DNA from: Parcubacteria group bacterium
GTDB taxonomy: Bacteria > Patescibacteriota > Minisyncoccia > Moranbacterales > UBA9337
Assembly: GCA_041662245.1 (NCBI GenBank)
Contig: JBAZSW010000005.1
Coordinates: forward strand, 57,837-121,836
Direction: 5' to 3'
DNA length: 64,000 nt
Below the pieces are notes generated by a model. The model had not been told where the DNA came from and searched no databases. It worked only from the letters and a program-made list of their open reading frames with translations. The stretch's first letter is position 1. Each line of letters begins with the position of its first letter. This document shows, in pieces, positions 50,881-56,422 of the stretch. Both the position numbers and the translations under genes were made by a program.

Positions 50881-51429
50881 ATGACGCAAGCTATCAGAAA
50901 TTATTTATTGGCAGATGGTAACATTGGTTCAATTTTATTGGTGGCGGTTGTCTTTTTGATAGGTGCCATTGGGGCTATTTTTTATGCAGCTTTTTTAACC
51001 AAAAAAATATTTGGAGCTTGGAATGACATTTCGGATTCCTTTGTTTGTGAATTGAATTCTATCGGTTTAGATATCGTCAATGTCTTAATTGAAATTGCGA
51101 TGATTGGAGCCGATAAGCATGCGGCATTTGCAATTGGAAAAGTAAAGCAAGAAATTGCAAATAGTAGCGCCAATCCTAATTTCTTTATCAATTTACTTGA
51201 ATTTTCTGAAAAAATTCATGACAATAATCATACTCAAGTTTTGAATAGCGATTATGCCAAAGCAAGGGAAGCTATCAAGGAGGCTATTGCATTGGCGGGG
51301 GCATATCAAAAAGTCAAAGGACTTGAAGAATTCGCTCAGTTGGCCGTCAAAACATCTGAGGCGAAGAAAGAAATCGCTGACGCTGCTGAAAATCTGAGGG
51401 GTATTCTCTATGGTCTTAAGCAAGCCTAG
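50881..51429 (+). CDS. Hypothetical N-terminally membrane-anchored protein
   Basis: RBS gaggagagagatt precedes the ATG. One TM followed by a helical region. Confidence 0.45.
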   Translation: MTQAIRNYLLADGNIGSILLVAVVFLIGAIGAIFYAAFLTKKIFGAWNDISDSFVCELNSIGLDIVNVLIEIAMIGADKHAAFAIGKVKQEIANSSANPNFFINLLEFSEKIHDNNHTQVLNSDYAKAREAIKEAIALAGAYQKVKGLEEFAQLAVKTSEAKKEIADAAENLRGILYGLKQA

Positions 51430-51449
51430 AGATAATCTTATTTTGCTTG

Positions 51450-51486
51450 AAAACTTCTTGATTAGATATTAATCAAGAAGTTTTTT
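51450..51486 (+). terminator. Rho-independent terminator
   Basis: aaacttcttgatta gatat taatcaagaagtttttt. Confidence 0.8.
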
Positions 51487-51595
51487 ATGTAAAAAACTAA
51501 AAAATAAATAAAAAAAGTGAAAAGTGAGGGATGTGGATAACTCATGAAAATGGCTCAAAATAAGGATAATTTCAGAGGCTTGCCAGCATTTTATC

Positions 51596-51624
51596 TTGTG
51601 GTATAATTACCCTGTAACATACAA
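51596..51624 (+). promoter_or_regulatory. Putative promoter (TTGCCA-16-TATAAT) for nrdR
   Basis: ttgccagcattttatcttgtggtataat. Confidence 0.45.
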
Positions 51625-51718
51625 CATGTAGTGTAAATATTCATTTAAACATAAAAATAGTCAAATAGCAAGGGTAAAATAACGGCATATATTTAGATGT
51701 TTAAATAAAAATAAAAAT

Positions 51719-52180
51719 ATGATTTGTCCAGCCTGTAATCATCCTGATACAAAAGTGGTTGATTCTCGCGATACCAACGAAGGCAAAGCTATCCGAAGAC
51801 GAAGAGAATGCGAGAAATGCAAGACCAGATTTAGCACTTATGAGGAAATAGAAATTATGAGACTTCTGGTGATAAAGAGAAATGGAGAAAAAGAAGAATA
51901 TAATCAGGAAAAAATAATAAAGGGAATCGAAAAGTCTCTGGAAAAGAGACCTGTCAATCAGGAAAAAAAAGAAAAGTTAGTAAATGAAATAGAATACCAA
52001 GTGCACATTAAAAGTAAGCAAGGTGAGATAGCTAGCAAAGAAGTGGGAAAAATAATTTTAGATAAGCTTAAGGAGATTGATGATGTAGCTTATTTGAGGT
52101 TTGCTAGCGTATATAAATCCTTTGGTAGTTTAAATAGTTTTAAAAAAGAACTAGAAAAGTTAGAAGAAGAAGAAAAATAA
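51719..52180 (+). CDS. nrdR: Transcriptional repressor NrdR
   Basis: Zn-ribbon MICPACNHPDTKVVDSR...RRRECEKC plus an ATP-cone domain. Confidence 0.9.
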   Translation: MICPACNHPDTKVVDSRDTNEGKAIRRRRECEKCKTRFSTYEEIEIMRLLVIKRNGEKEEYNQEKIIKGIEKSLEKRPVNQEKKEKLVNEIEYQVHIKSKQGEIASKEVGKIILDKLKEIDDVAYLRFASVYKSFGSLNSFKKELEKLEEEEK

Positions 52181-52235
52181 AATATAAAAATAATCTATAA
52201 TTTTCTTAGAAAATCAATCCGCCTGTGCTAGAGCT

Positions 52236-54365
52236 TTGGCGAGACAAGAAAAAAATAAAAATATGACTCAAAAGAAAAAAATAACAAATGAAGGAAAAGG
52301 GGTAGAAAAGAAACAAGAAGCTCAAAAAATAGTTGCTAAAATTATTAAAAGGAGTGGTAAGGTAGTTCCTTTTAGTGAAGAAAAAATAGTCAAAGCTGTT
52401 TTTAAAGCGTTCAAAGAGACTGAGGAGGGAGATTTGAAGGATGCCGAGAAAGTGGCCAAAAAAGTAACTCAACTTTTAAGCAAAAGTTTTCGTAAAGGTT
52501 ATGTACCAGAGATTGAAGAGATTCAAGATACGGTAGAAAAAGTTTTGATGATATTGGATTTTGAGGTAACTGCTAAAGCTTATATTCTTTATCGCGAACA
52601 ACATCGCAAAGTGCGAGAAACGGAAGAAGTTTTGGATGAGGCTGTAAGTTTGGTAGATAAATATATTGACGAATCAGATTGGCGAGTTAAGGAAAATTCT
52701 AATATGGGGTTTTCGTTGCAGGGTTTAAATAATTTTATCTCTTCGGCAGTTAGCGCTAAATATTGGATGAACAAGGTTTACACCAAAAATATTCGAGATG
52801 CTCATGAAGATGGAGATTTGCATGTACATGATTTGCAAATGGTGGCCGCGTATTGCTGTGGATGGGATTTGCATGATCTATTGATTAGGGGTTTTGGTGG
52901 AGTTCCTGGAAAAGTTCATTCTGGACCAGCTAAACATTTTCGAAGTGCGCTGGGACAAATGGTGAATTTTATTTATACTTTGCAGGGTGAAGCTAATGGC
53001 GCACAGGCTTTTGCTAATTTTGATACATTGTTGGCTCCTTTCGTTTATTACGACAAATTAAATTATAAAGAAGTGAAACAGGCTATCCAAGAATTTGTTT
53101 TCAATATGAATGTTCCGACTCGAGTGGGGTTCCAAACACCTTTTTCTAATATTACTTTAGATTTACAAGTACCTTCTAACTATAAAGATGAAGCTGTAAT
53201 TATTGGAGGAAAACCTTTAAGAAAGAAATATGGATCTTTCCAAAAAGAGATGAATATGATTAATCGAGCTTTTGCAGAAGTGATGAGCAAAGGTGATTCT
53301 CAAAACAGGGTATTTACTTTTCCGATTCCCACCTACAATATTTCTAAAGATTTTAATTGGGAGGATAAGGCGTTGGAGCCAGTTTGGGAAATGACCGCTA
53401 AATATGGGATGCCTTATTTTGCTAATTTTATTAATTCTGATATGAGTCCTGATGATGCTAGAAGTATGTGTTGTCGACTTAGGTTGGATAATCGTGAATT
53501 ACAAAGAAGGGGTGGAGGACTTTTTGGCGCCAATCCTATGACTGGTTCAATCGGGGTGGTGACTATTAATATGCCAAGAATCGGATATTTGGCAAAAGAT
53601 AAAAAAGATTTTTTTAGCAGATTGGATAAATTGATGGATATTGCCAAAGAAAGCTTAGAACTAAAAAGAGTTTTTATAGAAAAACTAACGGAAGCGGGAT
53701 TATATCCATATTCTAGATATTATTTAAGAGATATTAAAATGAGAAGGGGTGCATATTGGGGCAATCATTTTTCTACTATAGGGCTTTTGGGGATGAATGA
53801 GGCATTATTAAATCTTTTTGGAAAAGGAATTGCAACTAAGGAAGGAAATCTTTTTGCGCAGAAAGTTTTAGATCATATGCGAAGCAAAATGATTAAGTAC
53901 CAAAAAGAGACTGGCAATATGTATAATTTGGAAGCTACTCCCGCTGAAGGGACCACTTATCGCTTAGCAAATTTAGATAGAAAAAAATTCCCTGAAATAA
54001 TTTTTGCTAATAATGAATCAGTTAAAGCGGGAGCTGCTGAACCATATTATACCAATTCTTCTCAACTGCCAGTGGGTTATACTAGCGATATTTTTGAAGC
54101 TTTGGATCTACAAGACAATCTTCAAACTAAATATACTGGAGGAACAGTATTGCATGGATTTTTAGGTGAAAAGATTAATGATATAGAAGTGGTTAAAAAT
54201 TTGGTAAGAACTATTGCAACCAAGTATGCTCTTCCTTATTTCACTTTTACTCCGACCTTTAGCATTTGTCCGGAACACGGATATATAGCAGGGGAGCATC
54301 ATACCTGCCCAAAATGTAAAATAGCTATGAAAAAAGAAGATGTAAAGTTCGAGAAGGTGAGATAA
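52236..54365 (+). CDS. nrdD: Anaerobic ribonucleoside-triphosphate reductase, catalytic subunit (class III RNR); ends at the Zn-ribbon and lacks the glycyl-radical motif. The start may be the ATG at 52263.
   Basis: N-terminal ATP-cone. Conserved class III core. The C-terminus ...SICPEHGYIAGEHHTCPKC stops before any RVxG[YF] motif. Confidence 0.85.
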   Translation: MARQEKNKNMTQKKKITNEGKGVEKKQEAQKIVAKIIKRSGKVVPFSEEKIVKAVFKAFKETEEGDLKDAEKVAKKVTQLLSKSFRKGYVPEIEEIQDTVEKVLMILDFEVTAKAYILYREQHRKVRETEEVLDEAVSLVDKYIDESDWRVKENSNMGFSLQGLNNFISSAVSAKYWMNKVYTKNIRDAHEDGDLHVHDLQMVAAYCCGWDLHDLLIRGFGGVPGKVHSGPAKHFRSALGQMVNFIYTLQGEANGAQAFANFDTLLAPFVYYDKLNYKEVKQAIQEFVFNMNVPTRVGFQTPFSNITLDLQVPSNYKDEAVIIGGKPLRKKYGSFQKEMNMINRAFAEVMSKGDSQNRVFTFPIPTYNISKDFNWEDKALEPVWEMTAKYGMPYFANFINSDMSPDDARSMCCRLRLDNRELQRRGGGLFGANPMTGSIGVVTINMPRIGYLAKDKKDFFSRLDKLMDIAKESLELKRVFIEKLTEAGLYPYSRYYLRDIKMRRGAYWGNHFSTIGLLGMNEALLNLFGKGIATKEGNLFAQKVLDHMRSKMIKYQKETGNMYNLEATPAEGTTYRLANLDRKKFPEIIFANNESVKAGAAEPYYTNSSQLPVGYTSDIFEALDLQDNLQTKYTGGTVLHGFLGEKINDIEVVKNLVRTIATKYALPYFTFTPTFSICPEHGYIAGEHHTCPKCKIAMKKEDVKFEKVR

Positions 54366-54495
54366 TCTTTAAAAAATTGGGAATTTGTAAATCAAGAGCA
54401 GACAACTAATTGCTCGCAAGAGCATTTGAAATAACTCTATTTGAATACAATTTATTGTTATTTGAGGAGAGTGATAAATAAAAAAAATAAAAAAT

Positions 54496-54533
54496 AAATT
54501 TATAAATTGTGGAAATACAATTTATAAATTAAA
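54496..54533. promoter_or_regulatory. AT-rich inverted repeat aatttataaattgt-N6-acaatttataaatt (candidate NrdR-box pair or operator) immediately upstream of the small nrdD-C ORF
   Basis: A perfect 14-bp inverted repeat with an ACA...TGT-type palindrome, as in NrdR boxes. Confidence 0.35.
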
Positions 54534-54538
54534 AAAAT

Positions 54539-54832
54539 ATGGAAAACAAATTAATTTGTCATGATTGTGGCAAAGAATTAGTCAAAGGTGATGAGTATGT
54601 CAATTATACTCAAGATGAAAAAACTTATTTGGTAAAATGTCGCGAATGTTATGAAAAAAATTCAGTTATTGAGAATTTTCAACCTTGCGATGTGTATAGC
54701 CGGGTAGTGGGATTTCATACTCCAATTCAAAGATGGAATAAAGCTAAGACGGCTGAATGGAAGGATAGAAAAACTTTCAAGGTGGATGAATCTGAAAATA
54801 AGGATGATTCTGATACTAAAAAAGATTGTTAA
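54539..54832 (+). CDS. Stand-alone NrdD C-terminal glycyl-radical domain protein (Zn-ribbon plus RVVGF..WN.AK..E.KDRK motif)
   Basis: CHDCGKEL...CREC Zn-ribbon, then YSRVVGFHTPIQRWNKAKTAEWKDRKTF. This parallels the E. coli NrdD C-terminus RRVCGYLGSPDARPFNAGKQEEVKRRVKH. Confidence 0.65.
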   Translation: MENKLICHDCGKELVKGDEYVNYTQDEKTYLVKCRECYEKNSVIENFQPCDVYSRVVGFHTPIQRWNKAKTAEWKDRKTFKVDESENKDDSDTKKDC

Positions 54833-55019
54833 TTGTAACAACACTTTGGGCTAAAAAAGATAGTAGGGCGATTTCTATTTCAGAAATCGCCCTAAAAAGA
54901 CTCAATATTTTTTAATCTTTCCATGAGTTTGGTTTAAAATAATAACTTTCAATTTCCTGTGCAAGAAAATAAAAATATTAATTTGTAATACAAAATGCTT
55001 AATATATAATATTTAAGAA

Positions 55020-55718
55020 ATGAATATTGCCAGTTTTCAAAAATTTACACTATTGGATTATCCGGGGCATATCGCTACAACTGTTTTTACTGTGGGTTGT
55101 AACTTTCGTTGCTCTTTTTGTCATAACCCTGAACTAGTACTTAGCTCGCAATTTATGGTTCACAGCAATAATAATGAAAAAGATTTTTTTAAGTTTTTAA
55201 AAGAAAGAGCCGGCAAATTAGAGGCAGTCTGTATTACGGGGGGTGAGCCAACCTTGCAAAAGGATTTATTGGATTTTATGTCTAAGGTAAAAAAAATGGG
55301 ATATTTAGTAAAATTGGATACTAACGGTATGCGCCCTGATGTTTTAAAAAAAGCACTGGATTCAAAAATTGTTGATTATGTGGCGATGGATATAAAAAAT
55401 TCTCTTAAAAACTATGAAAAAACAGTATGTACGAAAGTGGACCTAGAAAGAATAAAAATGAGTGTGGAATTGATAAGAAATAGCAAAGTTGATTATGACT
55501 TTCGTACTACCGTGGTTCCTGGAATTCATAAGGAAAAAGATTTTCAAGATATCGCTCTTTGGATTGGCGGAGCAAAAAAATATTTTTTACAAAGATTTAG
55601 GGATATTAAAACATTAGATCCCGCATTAAAAGATAAAACCAGAGGGAAAAAGTTAGACTTAGAAAAAATTAAAAAGAAAATTGAAAAACATTTTGGAGAA
55701 GTAGGAATAAGGGGGTAA
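55020..55718 (+). CDS. nrdG: Anaerobic ribonucleoside-triphosphate reductase activating protein (radical SAM)
   Basis: CNFRCSFCHNP radical-SAM cysteine motif and a glycine-rich SAM site ITGGEPTL. Confidence 0.85.
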   Translation: MNIASFQKFTLLDYPGHIATTVFTVGCNFRCSFCHNPELVLSSQFMVHSNNNEKDFFKFLKERAGKLEAVCITGGEPTLQKDLLDFMSKVKKMGYLVKLDTNGMRPDVLKKALDSKIVDYVAMDIKNSLKNYEKTVCTKVDLERIKMSVELIRNSKVDYDFRTTVVPGIHKEKDFQDIALWIGGAKKYFLQRFRDIKTLDPALKDKTRGKKLDLEKIKKKIEKHFGEVGIRG

Positions 55719-55876
55719 TTAAAACTAAAAATATCAAAGAAAGTATTTTTGTTAAATTGAATATAAATGGTGCGGGGTATTTACAAAAAACAATAATAGT
55801 GGTACAAGTAATTAGCGACTTAATAAGGGGTTGCTTTTTAGTTAAGAATAAAAACAAGAAAAGGGGAGGAAAATTC

Positions 55877-56422
55877 ATGTTAAAATGGTTCTTTTGTATT
55901 GTCTTGGTAGTGTCTATGGGTACAGGTGTGGCGGGCGCTACACTGGTATCCGACACAGTTGCCTTGGGACCCACCTCAAATTTTGAGGGGTACGTAAGCC
56001 ATGGTCGTGGCGATGTGAACTTCCTGGATGGAATTGGCGACTTTGTGGCTTGGGAGCATACATTTAATGTTGCACCTAACGCTCAAGATGCCACATTGGA
56101 AATTTCTTTTCGGGATGATGACTCTGACAGTTGGAGGCCGTCGTCTTGGGAGCTAGCCATTTTTGTCGGGGAAAGTGCTCAGATACTGGTTACTGTAGGA
56201 GAGGTCAACACCGGAGTTTGGACGACGTCAATTGACCCCAGTTTTCTTTCAGATGGGATTTTCCAAGCTGTTATCTGGAGTGTTTGGGGAGATCTCTATG
56301 TGGATTCTGCCACTTTGAGTTTTGAGTCTGTTCCTGTGGCACCTGTTCCCGAGCCAGCAACGATGTTGCTATTCGGGGCTGGACTTTCTCTATTTGGGAT
56401 AGTGAGACGCAAACAGTCATAG
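55877..56422 (+). CDS. PEP-CTERM sorting-domain protein (secreted; start at 55877 after the RBS aaggggagga)
   Basis: Signal peptide. C-terminal VPEPATMLLFGAGLSLFGIVRRKQS is a PEP motif plus TM plus basic tail. Sits in a GC-enriched segment. Confidence 0.65.
   Translation: MLKWFFCIVLVVSMGTGVAGATLVSDTVALGPTSNFEGYVSHGRGDVNFLDGIGDFVAWEHTFNVAPNAQDATLEISFRDDDSDSWRPSSWELAIFVGESAQILVTVGEVNTGVWTTSIDPSFLSDGIFQAVIWSVWGDLYVDSATLSFESVPVAPVPEPATMLLFGAGLSLFGIVRRKQS

What the first reader, a model, noticed from the sequence alone, without database searches (positions are those of the whole stretch)
52236..54832. Class III ribonucleotide reductase split: the glycyl-radical domain is a separate 97-aa Zn-ribbon ORF
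The large NrdD ORF ends just after a Zn-ribbon-like CPEH...CPKC segment and contains no RVxG[YF] glycyl-radical motif. A 173-bp AT-rich spacer follows, carrying the perfect inverted repeat aatttataaattgt-ggaaat-acaatttataaatt. Then a separate ORF encodes a second Zn-ribbon (CHDC...CREC) followed by YSRVVGFHTPIQRWNKAKTAEWKDRKTF, which aligns with the E. coli NrdD C-terminal radical site RRVCGYLGSPDARPFNAGKQEEVKRR. The radical-bearing Gly would therefore be supplied in trans, analogous to the GrcA/YfiD spare-part protein for PFL. Alternatively this is a decayed intron or insertion scar. The palindrome resembles NrdR-box architecture (an AT-rich ACA...TGT palindrome), and nrdR is encoded immediately upstream.
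Basis: partly seen in the sequence, partly recalled or inferred. Interest (0 to 1): 0.55.

Follow-up and report, generated by a model that had tools for sequence, protein, structure and literature searches.

The report
Two-gene anaerobic ribonucleotide reductase
In this Moranbacteria-like genome the oxygen-sensitive radical-carrying tail of the anaerobic DNA-precursor enzyme is made as a separate 97-residue protein, and relatives suggest it began as a replaceable "spare part", a kind of protein so far known only for pyruvate formate-lyase.

Summary
The 709-aa NrdD (52236-54365) stops 15 residues after its CPEH...CPKC zinc site and has no glycyl-radical motif. After 173 bp, a 97-aa ORF (54539-54832) encodes its own zinc ribbon plus YSRVVGF (Gly58), followed by nrdG. 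The split is not a sequencing error, an intron or an insertion scar. The order nrdR, nrdD, small ORF, nrdG recurs in 21 other assemblies, and both ORFs are under purifying selection (dN/dS 0.05-0.25). Ten relatives keep an intact radical tail on NrdD and also carry the small gene. Others show that tail decaying (TVYLKVVMAD*), with at least three independent losses. I therefore infer that a trans "spare-part" gene was gained first and the cis domain was lost afterwards. Homologous stand-alone proteins also occur next to Fur-family/SOD/rubrerythrin genes, in Desulfobacterota, and within phage structural modules. No Pfam, NCBIfam or PHROG family covers them. A 2026 review says it is unknown whether spare parts exist for glycyl radical enzymes other than PFL. 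The spacer palindrome is not an NrdR box. The real box lies upstream of nrdR. The palindrome is a hairpin conserved in position but not in sequence. No biochemistry was done, so trans radical supply remains an inference.

The parts
51580..51607 (+). Sigma-70-like promoter of the nrdR-nrdD operon (TTGCCA-16-TATAAT, TG-extended)
   Evidence: Best match in the region, 11 of 12 positions. This is a consensus match only.
51619..51634 (+). NrdR box ATACAACATGTAGTGT, just downstream of the -10 hexamer
   Evidence: It carries all six conserved positions (C4, A6, A8, T9, T11, G13) defined in PMC13584703. Boxes with 3 or fewer mismatches lie upstream of nrdR in 17 of 19 related loci. No convincing second box was found 15-16 bp away when I read the flanking sequence by eye.
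51719..52180 (+). nrdR (153 aa; Zn ribbon plus ATP-cone)
   Evidence: TIGR00244, 181 bits against a cutoff of 125; Pfam Zn_ribbon_NrdR and ATP-cone.
52236..54365 (+). nrdD catalytic subunit (709 aa from the TTG start; an alternative ATG lies at 52263). It has an ATP-cone and an NRDD barrel but no glycyl-radical domain.
   Evidence: NF006126, 1048 bits, model positions 2-649 of 684; Pfam NRDD 1-528 of 562. The finger-loop motif SMCCRLR is invariant. dN/dS is 0.05-0.08 against clade members.
54267..54317 (+). Retained metal-site segment CPEHGYIAGEHHTCPKC (residues 678-694)
   Evidence: It aligns with the CPxHGY...CPxC segment of fused relatives and with the Zn-site region of P. copri NrdD 8p23.
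54318..54365 (+). Vestigial tail KIAMKKEDVKFEKVR plus the stop codon. It ends about where O2 cleavage would cut a fused NrdD.
   Evidence: The tail motif KFE[KRT]V is conserved in all 6 clade members. Fused relatives have xIKQPCEVYSRVVGY at this position. Intermediate decayed tails occur in L014 (TVYLKVVMAD*) and L017 (EVFLKVGEE...*).
54366..54538 (+). 173-bp AT-rich intergenic spacer
   Evidence: Its sequence is not conserved among relatives, whose spacers range from 16 to 189 bp, with one apparent overlap (L021).
54497..54530 (+). Perfect 14-bp-arm hairpin ending 8 nt before the start codon of the small ORF
   Evidence: -12.5 kcal/mol, z = -8.4. Hairpins of unrelated sequence sit at the same position in 13 of 21 related loci. 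It is not an NrdR box.
54539..54832 (+). Small glycyl-radical subunit (97 aa): an N-terminal Zn ribbon plus the NrdD-type radical loop
   Evidence: Pfam NRDD 510-562 of 562, E = 8e-10. There are 48 homologue clusters, all 73-106 aa. Invariant residues are C7, C10, C34, Y53, S54, R55, V57, G58, W66 and N67; C37 is conserved in at least 90% of sequences. dN/dS is 0.11-0.25.
54557..54649 (+). Zn ribbon (C7-x2-C10 ... C34-x2-C37)
   Evidence: The cysteines are conserved (C7, C10 and C34 invariant, C37 in at least 90%). This is the confident part of the AlphaFold2 model (pLDDT 70-87). The domain is shared with orphan and phage homologues.
54695..54715 (+). Radical motif YSRVVGF. Gly58 (codon GGA, 54710-54712) is the predicted radical site.
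   Evidence: Read directly from the sequence. It aligns with the RITGY motif of P. copri NrdD 8p23 (weak: E = 0.24) and with the end of TIGR02487 and NF006126.
54864..54894 (.). GC-rich 13-14-bp hairpin after the small ORF
   Evidence: The T-run lies only on the minus strand, so its role on the plus strand is uncertain.
54983..55010 (+). Promoter-like site upstream of nrdG (TTGTAA-16-TATAAT)
   Evidence: 10 of 12 positions. This is a consensus match only.
55020..55718 (+). nrdG, the radical-SAM activase
   Evidence: TIGR02495 NrdG2, 209 bits against a cutoff of 131; Pfam Radical_SAM and Fer4_12.

Best explanation
The locus encodes an obligate two-polypeptide class III ribonucleotide reductase.

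Proposed mechanism (inferred):
1. The 709-aa NrdD supplies the ATP-cone, the ten-stranded barrel, the finger-loop cysteine and a residual metal site. It is genetically 'pre-cleaved' close to the point where O2 would cut a normal NrdD.
2. The 97-aa protein supplies the glycyl-radical loop (Gly58) in trans. Its own zinc ribbon acts as a folded handle that replaces the lost covalent link.
3. NrdG installs the radical on the small protein.
4. The radical loop docks into the NrdD barrel next to the finger-loop Cys.
5. After oxygen damage only the 11-kDa subunit has to be replaced.

Proposed evolutionary route (inferred from comparative data):
1. A stand-alone Zn-ribbon plus radical-loop protein first existed beside a complete NrdD, as GrcA/YfiD exists beside PFL.
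2. Its gene became fixed between nrdD and nrdG.
3. The redundant cis radical domain of NrdD then decayed, at least three separate times. The window represents one such end state.

Shown here: gene structures, conservation, selection, the intermediate states and the co-variation. Inferred: radical installation on the small protein, its docking, and the benefit under oxygen.
For: 1. Exact complementarity. The large ORF covers NF006126 positions 2-649 and the small ORF covers 643-683 of 684. In fused Patescibacteria NrdDs only 5 residues separate CPKC from CEVYSRVVGY.

2. Conservation. There are 48 homologue clusters at 90% identity, all 73-106 aa. The order nrdR, nrdD, small ORF, nrdG recurs in 21 further loci.

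3. Both genes are under purifying selection. dN/dS is 0.11-0.25 for the small ORF and 0.05-0.08 for the GR-less NrdD, whose finger loop SMCCRLR is invariant. The truncated enzyme is therefore in use and needs a radical source.

4. Intermediate states exist. Ten loci have a complete cis radical tail and also the small gene. Others have decayed tails (TVYLKVVMAD*, EVFLKVGEE...*).

5. Phylogeny. NrdDs followed by the small gene form one clade (bootstrap 99). GR-less forms are nested among GR-containing forms in two subclades (bootstrap 100 and 100; nesting 84-97). The window clade is a third (bootstrap 100).

6. Co-variation. Cis and trans radical segments of the same genome are 81-97% identical. 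Between genomes, cis-cis identity is 77% and small-small 67%. In 9 of 10 genomes the best-matching cis partner (ties included) is from the same genome or its subclade. This is expected if both fit the same barrel and the same NrdG.

7. Orphan homologues lie directly after a Fur-family regulator and before SOD or rubrerythrin plus desulfoferrodoxin, or next to hemerythrin. One MAG has a fused NrdD (L084) plus an orphan copy (L045).

8. In the AlphaFold2 model the zinc ribbon is confident and the radical loop is disordered when the protein is modelled alone. This fits a segment that orders only once docked.

9. The GRE review PMC13450708 describes the PFL/YfiD precedent and says the question is open for other GREs.
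Against: - No biochemical, structural-complex or expression data were available. Docking and activation in trans are inferred.
- Only 64 kb of the genome was seen. No other RNR lies in it, but one elsewhere cannot be excluded.
- All Patescibacteria data come from MAGs.
- The tree is neighbour-joining on 674 columns. The monophyly of the 15 non-window members has only 52% bootstrap support, so the count of independent losses depends on parsimony.
- High third-codon-position identity in 4 of 10 cis/trans pairs suggests gene conversion. That would explain part of the co-variation without any functional constraint.
- The oxidative-stress neighbourhood was seen in 4 of 7 Patescibacteria orphan loci that I identified by reading ORF starts (3 Fur-linked, 1 beside hemerythrin). 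It was not seen in the three Desulfobacterota orphan loci checked (L029, L037, L046).
- The match of the small protein to a solved NrdD radical domain is weak (E = 0.24).
Confidence: 0.7

Rival explanations
1. The small protein is only a facultative spare part, as GrcA is. The truncated NrdD of this clade is inactive or has another role, and the cell obtains dNTPs from another RNR or by salvage from its host.
For: Stage-1 relatives and the MAG with L045 and L084 show that the small protein can coexist with a complete NrdD. Only 64 kb of this genome was examined. Patescibacteria have reduced, partner-dependent metabolism (general knowledge).
Against: The GR-less NrdD is under strong purifying selection (dN/dS 0.05-0.08). 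It keeps the invariant finger loop and full-length similarity to the family model (1048 bits). Its operon retains nrdR, an NrdR box and nrdG. The truncation has been stably inherited across six diverged assemblies, with synonymous sites saturated or dS at least 0.9.
Confidence: 0.12
2. A simple gene fission, a pseudogene, or an assembly or sequencing error has split an ordinary fused nrdD.
For: Simple fissions do exist elsewhere. Short GR-only ORFs (43-66 aa, no zinc ribbon) follow truncated NrdDs in Halanaerobium, Pyramidobacter, Hippea, Anaerolineae and others.
Against: The window's small ORF has 45 extra N-terminal residues forming a conserved zinc ribbon that fused NrdDs lack. The two ORFs are in different frames and 173 bp apart with several stops between them. 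The same structure occurs in independent assemblies with different spacers. Both ORFs are under purifying selection.
Confidence: 0.04
3. The two ORFs are joined after transcription or translation, by a self-splicing intron, a split intein or translational bypassing, to give a normal fused NrdD.
For: The phage T4 nrdD gene carries a group I intron, and NrdDs often host inteins (general knowledge). Several relatives here have intein-sized insertions (1010-1159 aa). A stable hairpin sits in the gap.
Against: The permissive Rfam scan of 51400-55200 found no intron. Spacer length (from 16 to 189 bp) and sequence vary freely. The frame offset between the ORFs also varies. The small ORFs all begin with Met after an A-rich leader like those of neighbouring genes. 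The conserved N-terminal zinc ribbon would be an insertion in the fused product. The large ORF ends 15 residues after CPKC, so there is no room for a split-intein N-terminal half.
Confidence: 0.03
4. The small protein is a regulator or decoy. For example, it competes for NrdG or stores the radical, and it is not the catalytic radical cofactor of NrdD.
For: Free radical-domain peptides are activase substrates in PFL systems (background). The phage-encoded orphans could in principle act as inhibitors of host RNR.
Against: In the window clade NrdD has no radical domain of its own, so a decoy would have nothing to compete with. The trans loop co-varies with the cis loop it would replace. The complete radical-loop motif is invariant.
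Confidence: 0.06

Closest known systems
GrcA/YfiD of E. coli (and Y06I of phage T4): the autonomous glycyl radical cofactor, or 'spare part', of pyruvate formate-lyase
   Same: It is a small stand-alone protein that reproduces the C-terminal radical domain of a glycyl radical enzyme. It is activated by the same activase and substitutes for the enzyme's own radical domain after O2 cleavage (PMC13450708). Stage-1 relatives (a complete NrdD plus the small gene), Fur/SOD/rubrerythrin-linked orphans and phage-encoded copies mirror the GrcA and Y06I situation.
   Different: The parent enzyme differs: NrdD-type loop (Pfam NRDD), not the PFL-type Gly_radical domain. The N-terminus is a folded zinc ribbon rather than GrcA's disordered N-terminus. 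In the window the parent enzyme has lost its own radical domain, so the small protein is obligatory. No biochemical test has been done.
Canonical single-chain class III RNR (NrdD of phage T4, E. coli, Thermotoga maritima, Prevotella copri) with NrdG
   Same: The ATP-cone, barrel, finger-loop Cys, C-terminal metal site, radical motif and adjacent NrdG activase are all present and conserved.
   Different: The radical motif is on a second polypeptide that has an extra zinc ribbon.
Split RNRs of other classes: class II NrdJa/NrdJb (e.g. Pseudomonas aeruginosa)
   Same: One RNR catalytic function is divided between two adjacent genes, with the C-terminal zinc-finger-containing part on the second chain (PMC9669993).
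   Different: Those are fissions of a class II enzyme in which the second chain carries reductant-shuttling or IscU-like domains, not the radical cofactor. Here the separated part is the radical-bearing domain. The comparative series indicates gain of a gene followed by loss of a domain, not fission.
Short GR-only ORFs next to truncated NrdD (Halanaerobium saccharolyticum NZ_SNWX01000002, Pyramidobacter, Hippea, Dojkabacteria, Anaerolineae MAGs), found here
   Same: They break at the same point, just after CPxC, and have the same NrdD subfamily and the same radical loop.
   Different: They have no zinc ribbon and are 43-66 aa. The gene order is sometimes nrdD, nrdG, small ORF. They look like true fissions. 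I found no description of them in the literature searched.

Membership tests
Class III RNR catalytic subunit NrdD (NF006126 / TIGR02487 / PF13597) | The NRDD barrel domain scores above the curated cutoff | tested here: met
   NF006126: 1048 bits against a cutoff of 548. TIGR02487: 517 against 326. PF13597: 620 against 26.
Class III RNR catalytic subunit NrdD (NF006126 / TIGR02487 / PF13597) | Finger-loop cysteine that becomes the thiyl radical | tested here: met
   SMCCRLR is invariant in every NrdD examined whose finger loop is uninterrupted, GR-less or not (52 of 56; the regex did not match in L051, L072, L075 and L089). It aligns with TMGCRTR of P. copri NrdD 8p23.
Class III RNR catalytic subunit NrdD (NF006126 / TIGR02487 / PF13597) | C-terminal metal-binding site | tested here: met
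   CPEH...CPKC is present at residues 678-694 and aligned with fused relatives. Metal binding itself cannot be tested here.
Class III RNR catalytic subunit NrdD (NF006126 / TIGR02487 / PF13597) | Glycyl-radical motif (R-V-x-G-[YF]) at the C-terminus of the same polypeptide | tested here: not met
   The large ORF ends 15 residues after CPKC and model positions 650-684 are unmatched. The motif is on the 97-aa ORF instead (NF006126 643-683; Pfam NRDD 510-562, E = 8e-10).
Class III RNR catalytic subunit NrdD (NF006126 / TIGR02487 / PF13597) | Cognate radical-SAM activase NrdG encoded nearby | tested here: met
   TIGR02495 NrdG2: 209 bits against a cutoff of 131, at 55020-55718.
[quoted passage not shown] | Small stand-alone protein carrying a glycyl-radical loop | tested here: met
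   It is 97 aa with YSRVVGF. There are 48 homologue clusters of 73-106 aa.
[quoted passage not shown] | Homology to the PFL C-terminus (Pfam Gly_radical, PF01228) | tested here: not met
   The Pfam scan returns only NRDD (and a sub-threshold DUF7479), with no Gly_radical hit. NCBIfam hits are all NrdD models. It works like GrcA but is not a member of that family.
[quoted passage not shown] | The parent enzyme keeps its own radical domain, so the small protein is a replacement | tested here: not met
   This is not met in the window, where NrdD has no radical motif. It is met in 10 related loci (L012, L015, L016, L019, L020, L022, L024, L028, L033, L043) and in the MAG carrying L045 and L084.
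[quoted passage not shown] | Restores activity to the O2-cleaved enzyme and is activated by the same activase | not testable with these tools
   This needs anaerobic biochemistry. The indirect support is cis/trans co-variation and the oxidative-stress neighbourhoods of orphans.
NrdR operator (NrdR boxes) | A 16-bp box with conserved C4, A6, A8, T9, T11 and G13 (C4 and G13 critical), in pairs 15-16 bp apart (PMC13584703) | tested here: not met
   The spacer palindrome's 16-mers TAAATTTATAAATTGT and ACAATTTATAAATTAA each carry 2 of the 6 positions. They lack C4 and G13 and are 6 bp apart. No box with 3 or fewer mismatches lies in the spacer of any of 19 loci. In contrast, 51619-51634 upstream of nrdR has all 6 positions.
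Self-splicing intron or intein joining the two ORFs | A recognisable group I/II intron RNA, or intein splicing blocks at the junction | tested here: not met
   The Rfam E-value scan of 51400-55200 gave only a chance-level PYLIS match. The large ORF's tail after CPKC is 15 residues, and the small ORF starts with Met followed by a zinc ribbon.

The most novel reading that the evidence does not exclude
Class III ribonucleotide reductases have their own widespread family of autonomous glycyl-radical 'spare-part' proteins. Most combine a zinc ribbon with the NrdD radical loop, and some are short loop-only peptides. They are present in Patescibacteria, Desulfobacterota, an ANME-1 (Methanophagales) archaeon and many phages. 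In Moranbacteria-like lineages, including this window, the spare part has permanently replaced the enzyme's own radical domain. The result is the first natural glycyl radical enzyme whose radical cofactor is an obligatory separate subunit.
Probability: 0.6. Interest if true: 0.85.

Novelty: new variant of a known kind. Interest (0 to 1): 0.78.

Why it matters
Glycyl radical enzymes are destroyed by oxygen through backbone cleavage at the radical glycine. The only known repair strategy is the GrcA/YfiD spare part of pyruvate formate-lyase. A June 2026 review states that it is unknown whether spare parts exist for any other glycyl radical enzyme (PMC13450708).

This locus and its relatives offer concrete, testable candidates for the enzyme that makes DNA precursors in anaerobes:
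- a natural obligate two-subunit form (this window);
- natural cis-plus-trans forms, which suit rescue experiments;
- a cultured organism with a split gene (Halanaerobium saccharolyticum);
- phage-encoded copies, which suggest that viruses keep host dNTP synthesis running under oxidative stress.

The separated radical subunit would also be a convenient minimal substrate for studying how NrdG installs the radical. It may help explain how organisms with very small genomes tolerate oxygen fluctuations. Finally, genome annotation currently labels these 5-17-kDa proteins as 'anaerobic ribonucleoside-triphosphate reductase' or 'hypothetical'. Truncated NrdDs are therefore at risk of being dismissed as pseudogenes.

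Tried and rejected
- Intron: the permissive Rfam scan of the locus gave nothing relevant.
- PDB sequence search with the small ORF alone gave no hit. The profile search gave only a sub-threshold but correctly registered match to the P. copri NrdD radical loop.
- AlphaFold2 on the small protein alone gave pLDDT 64.6. The zinc ribbon is confident but the radical loop is below 50, so no fold search was attempted. A model of the complex could not be run, because the tool handles single chains only and restricts inputs.
- NrdR-box reading of the palindrome: rejected.
- A plus-strand promoter inside the spacer: none was found by the consensus scan.
- A classical terminator reading of the hairpin: rejected for the plus strand, where A-rich sequence follows the stem. 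The T-run lies on the minus strand only.
- Sequence conservation of the spacer among relatives: none. Only the position of a hairpin recurs.
- A conserved neighbourhood for the Desulfobacterota orphans: none was found in the three loci checked (L029, L037, L046).
- Literature: I searched for 'split nrdD', for NrdD with split, separate or spare-part glycyl radical domains, and for class III RNR in Patescibacteria. No description turned up. The library lacks most subscription journals, so absence of a report is not proven.
- Dedicated family models: none exists in Pfam, NCBIfam or PHROGs.


Full report
**1. What is in the window**

The region 51.4-55.8 kb carries four genes on the plus strand.
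- nrdR, 51719-52180.
- A 709-aa nrdD, 52236-54365.
- A 97-aa ORF, 54539-54832.
- nrdG, 55020-55718.

The curated models agree with these names. NrdR scores 181 bits on TIGR00244 and NrdG 209 bits on TIGR02495. NrdD scores 1048 bits on NF006126.

The NrdD match stops at model position 649 of 684. The protein ends ...CPEHGYIAGEHHTCPKCKIAMKKEDVKFEKVR* and has no radical motif. The 97-aa ORF matches exactly the missing end: NF006126 643-683 and Pfam NRDD 510-562 of 562, E = 8e-10. It reads M-ENKLI-CHDC-...-CREC-...-PCDVYSRVVGFHTPIQRWNKAKTAEWKDRKTF.

**2. It is not an error, intron or scar**

A search with the small ORF returned 48 clusters at 90% identity. All are 73-106 aa, and those that carry a source name are mostly labelled Moranbacteria or Patescibacteria, with one labelled Phaeodactylibacter. 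The four cysteines and Y53, S54, R55, V57, G58, W66 and N67 are invariant or nearly so.

Contigs for three distant members show the same gene order, with spacers of 44, 96 and 159 bp. Within the window's clade:
- the small ORF has dN/dS 0.11-0.25 at dS of at least 0.9;
- the truncated NrdD has dN/dS 0.05-0.08;
- the truncated NrdD keeps the finger-loop motif SMCCRLR, found in all 52 of the 56 NrdDs examined whose finger loop is uninterrupted.

An Rfam scan with permissive filters found no intron. The frame offset between the two ORFs varies among relatives. This excludes read-through or a fixed frameshift.

**3. How fused relatives look**

A scan of one genome per GTDB species gave 80 loci, which I classified with my own scripts.

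Fused Patescibacteria NrdDs read FSICPxHGYIxGEHFxCPKC-xIKQP-CEVYSRVVGY. Only five residues separate the metal site from the radical strand. The window's small ORF therefore carries about 45 residues, the CHDC...CREC zinc ribbon, that fused enzymes do not have. A plain fission cannot produce this.

**4. The key comparative result**

Twenty-two loci, counting the window, have a Zn-ribbon small gene between nrdD and nrdG, or directly after nrdD where nrdG was not detected nearby or the contig ends (L021, L028, L030).

In ten of them NrdD still has a complete radical tail of its own. An example is L012: ...CPKCVVEQKAEVYSRVVGYIRPVEQWNNGKKEEFCDRKEFKVKNK*.

In the other twelve the tail is lost or visibly decaying.
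- L014 ends ...EQSSTVYLKVVMAD*.
- L017 ends ...EQKTEVFLKVGEEELREK...*.
- The window clade ends ...KFEKV[KR]*.

In a neighbour-joining tree of 56 NrdDs (674 columns, 100 bootstraps):
- 21 of these 22 form one clade (bootstrap 99);
- GR-less forms are nested among GR-containing forms in two subclades (each bootstrap 100; the GR-less group L013/14/17/23 has 97, and its nesting 84);
- the window clade (bootstrap 100) is a third GR-less group.

The simplest history is this. The small gene was gained once in this clade, and the cis radical domain was then lost at least three times. The window's NrdD ends close to where O2-dependent cleavage at the radical glycine would truncate a normal NrdD. This follows from the backbone cleavage at the radical site described for glycyl radical enzymes in PMC13450708; that it has been shown for T4 NrdD is my own recollection.

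**5. Evidence that the cis and trans loops are interchangeable**

In the ten loci that have both, the 32-residue radical segments of NrdD and of the small protein from the same genome are 81-97% identical. Between genomes, NrdD tails are 77% identical and small proteins 67%. In 9 of 10 genomes the best-matching cis partner (ties included) belongs to the same genome or its immediate subclade. Lineage-specific residues move together, for example RIVG...WNAGK..EY in L020, L024, L028 and L033, and WNGGKQAEF in L012 and L016.

Third-codon-position identity is 72-85% in four pairs, which suggests gene conversion. It is at background (about 49%) in the rest, which points to a shared constraint. Either way, both loops are being kept compatible with the same partners.

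A Desulfobacterales MAG that has a fused NrdD (L084) and an unlinked small protein (L045) shows the same matching (WNDGKQAEF).

**6. A large family of stand-alone NrdD-type radical proteins**

I searched 1.84 billion representative proteins (one per cluster at 50% identity) with a profile of the small proteins. It found 170 proteins at E < 1e-10. All but one of the best 150 are small, 42-159 aa.
- 98 have at least two CxxC knuckles before the radical motif.
- 24 are loop-only.
- None looks like a fragment of a fused NrdD.

*Patescibacteria orphans.* In L025, L032 and L034 the gene starts within or just after a Fur-family regulator gene. It is followed by Fe/Mn SOD (L032) or by rubrerythrin plus desulfoferrodoxin (L034). 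In L026 it is followed by a hemerythrin-domain gene. No consistent neighbourhood was seen in the three Desulfobacterota loci checked.

*Phages.* In IMG/VR, 71 of the 80 best loci are small ORFs (39-206 aa, stop to stop) with no NrdD within 4 kb; nrdG was detected in only one locus (L137), which also carries a fused NrdD. Several of these ORFs sit inside structural modules:
- L108: tail tube, PmgB-like head protein, small ORF, tape measure;
- L121: terminase, small ORF, portal.

The deposited archaeal virus ANMV-1 (KP703175.1) has a 144-aa CDS of this family beside a prohead protease gene. It is labelled 'anaerobic ribonucleoside triphosphate reductase'.

*Simple fissions.* Short loop-only ORFs (43-66 aa) follow truncated NrdDs in Halanaerobium saccharolyticum (a cultured isolate; gene order nrdD, nrdG, small ORF), Pyramidobacter, Hippea, Dojkabacteria, Thermodesulfobacterium and Anaerolineae.

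**7. The palindrome**

As RNA it forms a 15-pair stem (-12.5 kcal/mol, z = -8.4) that ends 8 nt before the ATG.

Related loci have hairpins of unrelated sequence at the same place in 13 of 21 cases, ending roughly 10-14 nt before the start codon and followed by an A-rich leader. Loci with spacers of 16-44 nt have none. A position that is conserved while the sequence is free argues for a structural RNA or DNA element. My guess is a processing or stability hairpin between the cistrons. This is untested.

It is not an NrdR operator. By the definition in PMC13584703 the two 16-mers have 2 of 6 conserved positions. They lack C4 and G13 and are 6 bp apart rather than 15-16 bp.

A box with all six positions (ATACAACATGTAGTGT, 51619-51634) lies just downstream of the best promoter match (51580-51607, 11 of 12). 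Boxes with 3 or fewer mismatches to ACACWATATATWGTGT occur upstream of nrdR in 17 of 19 loci and never in the spacer. I recalled that consensus string from memory. The conserved positions were checked against the paper.

**8. Mechanism proposed**

Shown: the gene parts, their conservation, the selection on them and the intermediate states.

Inferred:
1. NrdG abstracts the hydrogen from Gly58 of the free small protein.
2. The radical loop inserts into the NrdD barrel next to the SMCCRLR cysteine.
3. The zinc ribbon, and perhaps the conserved KFEKV tail of NrdD, hold the two chains together.
4. After O2 damage only the small chain is replaced.

The AlphaFold2 model of the small protein alone has a confident zinc ribbon and a disordered radical loop. 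This fits a loop that orders only when docked.

**9. Comparison with what is known**

The system works like GrcA/YfiD with PFL. It is not a member of that family, because the loop is NrdD-type with no Pfam Gly_radical match. In the window the parent enzyme also has no radical domain of its own.

Split RNRs are known for class II (NrdJa/NrdJb; PMC9669993), but there the second chain does not carry the radical cofactor.

[quoted passage not shown] It adds that it is yet to be determined whether others have them. My literature searches found no description of a split or trans-complemented NrdD, and no Pfam, NCBIfam or PHROG model exists. The library lacks most subscription journals, so prior description cannot be fully excluded.

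**10. Verdict**

I file it as a new variant of a known kind: a glycyl radical enzyme with an autonomous radical cofactor, here obligatory and for class III RNR.

The main uncertainty is the lack of any biochemical or complex-structure test. Only 64 kb of the genome was visible, and it contains no other RNR.

Noticed in passing
L025:3628-4267; L032:3619-5128; L034:3603-5240; L026:3962-4766: In four Patescibacteria MAGs, orphan homologues of the small Zn-ribbon radical protein sit in oxidative-stress neighbourhoods. In three the order is Fur-family regulator, small ORF, then Fe/Mn SOD (L032), rubrerythrin plus desulfoferrodoxin (L034), or no identified stress gene downstream (L025). In L026 a hemerythrin-domain gene follows.
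   Followed up: partly
L090-L169 (IMG/VR); L108:3833-4273; L121:3944-4147; L170:2833-3267 (ANMV-1 virus KP703175.1, AJP62049.1): Most of the best viral hits are orphan NrdD-type radical-loop ORFs (39-206 aa, stop to stop) with no NrdD or NrdG within 4 kb. Some lie inside structural modules (tail tube/tape measure; terminase/portal). In ANMV-1 the 144-aa CDS is annotated as a full 'anaerobic ribonucleoside triphosphate reductase'.
   Followed up: partly
L088:1093-4123 (Halanaerobium saccharolyticum NZ_SNWX01000002); also L060, L064, L066, L070, L073, L074, L076, L080, L081, L085: A second kind of split occurs in unrelated phyla. A truncated NrdD ends shortly after CPxC, and a 43-66-aa ORF carries only the radical loop, with no zinc ribbon. 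In L066 and L088 (and apparently L087) the gene order is nrdD, nrdG, small ORF. One case is a cultured isolate.
   Followed up: partly
L045:3686-4183 and L084:1293-3476 (same MAG, WGS prefix CBFCZJ01): One Desulfobacterales MAG has a complete fused NrdD with nrdG on one contig and an unlinked Zn-ribbon radical protein on another. This is the GrcA-like configuration. The two radical loops share lineage-specific residues.
   Followed up: partly
Window 54539-54832 (C-terminus ...KKDC) and alignment A1 columns 101-129: Many small proteins end in cysteine-rich tails (GCASC, GCC, CC), and some fused NrdDs end in CECSL or CECNL. This recalls the C-terminal redox-shuttle cysteine pairs of class I and II RNRs. 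Its role here is unknown.
   Followed up: no
L051, L070, L071, L072, L073, L075, L089: NrdD ORFs of 861-1145 aa carry intein-sized insertions. In L051, L072, L075 and L089 the finger-loop motif SMCCRLR is interrupted, which suggests an intein at the catalytic loop.
   Followed up: no
Window 55757-56422: A PEP-CTERM-motif protein gene lies just after nrdG. Its GC content is about 45% against about 30% in the flanking sequence, so it may be horizontally acquired.
   Followed up: partly
Window 54864-54894 and 54983-55010: A GC-rich 13-14-bp hairpin follows the small ORF, with its T-run only on the minus strand. A promoter-like site (10 of 12) precedes nrdG. nrdG may therefore be transcribed separately from nrdR, nrdD and the small ORF.
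   Followed up: no
P0049 (1802 aa): A very long protein matched the zinc-ribbon part of the small-protein profile in 18 separate stretches. It appears to be a tandem array of similar zinc-ribbon units. It is unrelated to RNR as far as I could see and was not examined.
   Followed up: no
L015 and L022: Two MAGs labelled 'uncultured Bdellovibrionales' carry NrdD loci that nest firmly inside the Moranbacteria-like clade, with Patescibacteria-type gene order. The taxonomic labels may be wrong, or the contigs may be mis-binned.
   Followed up: no
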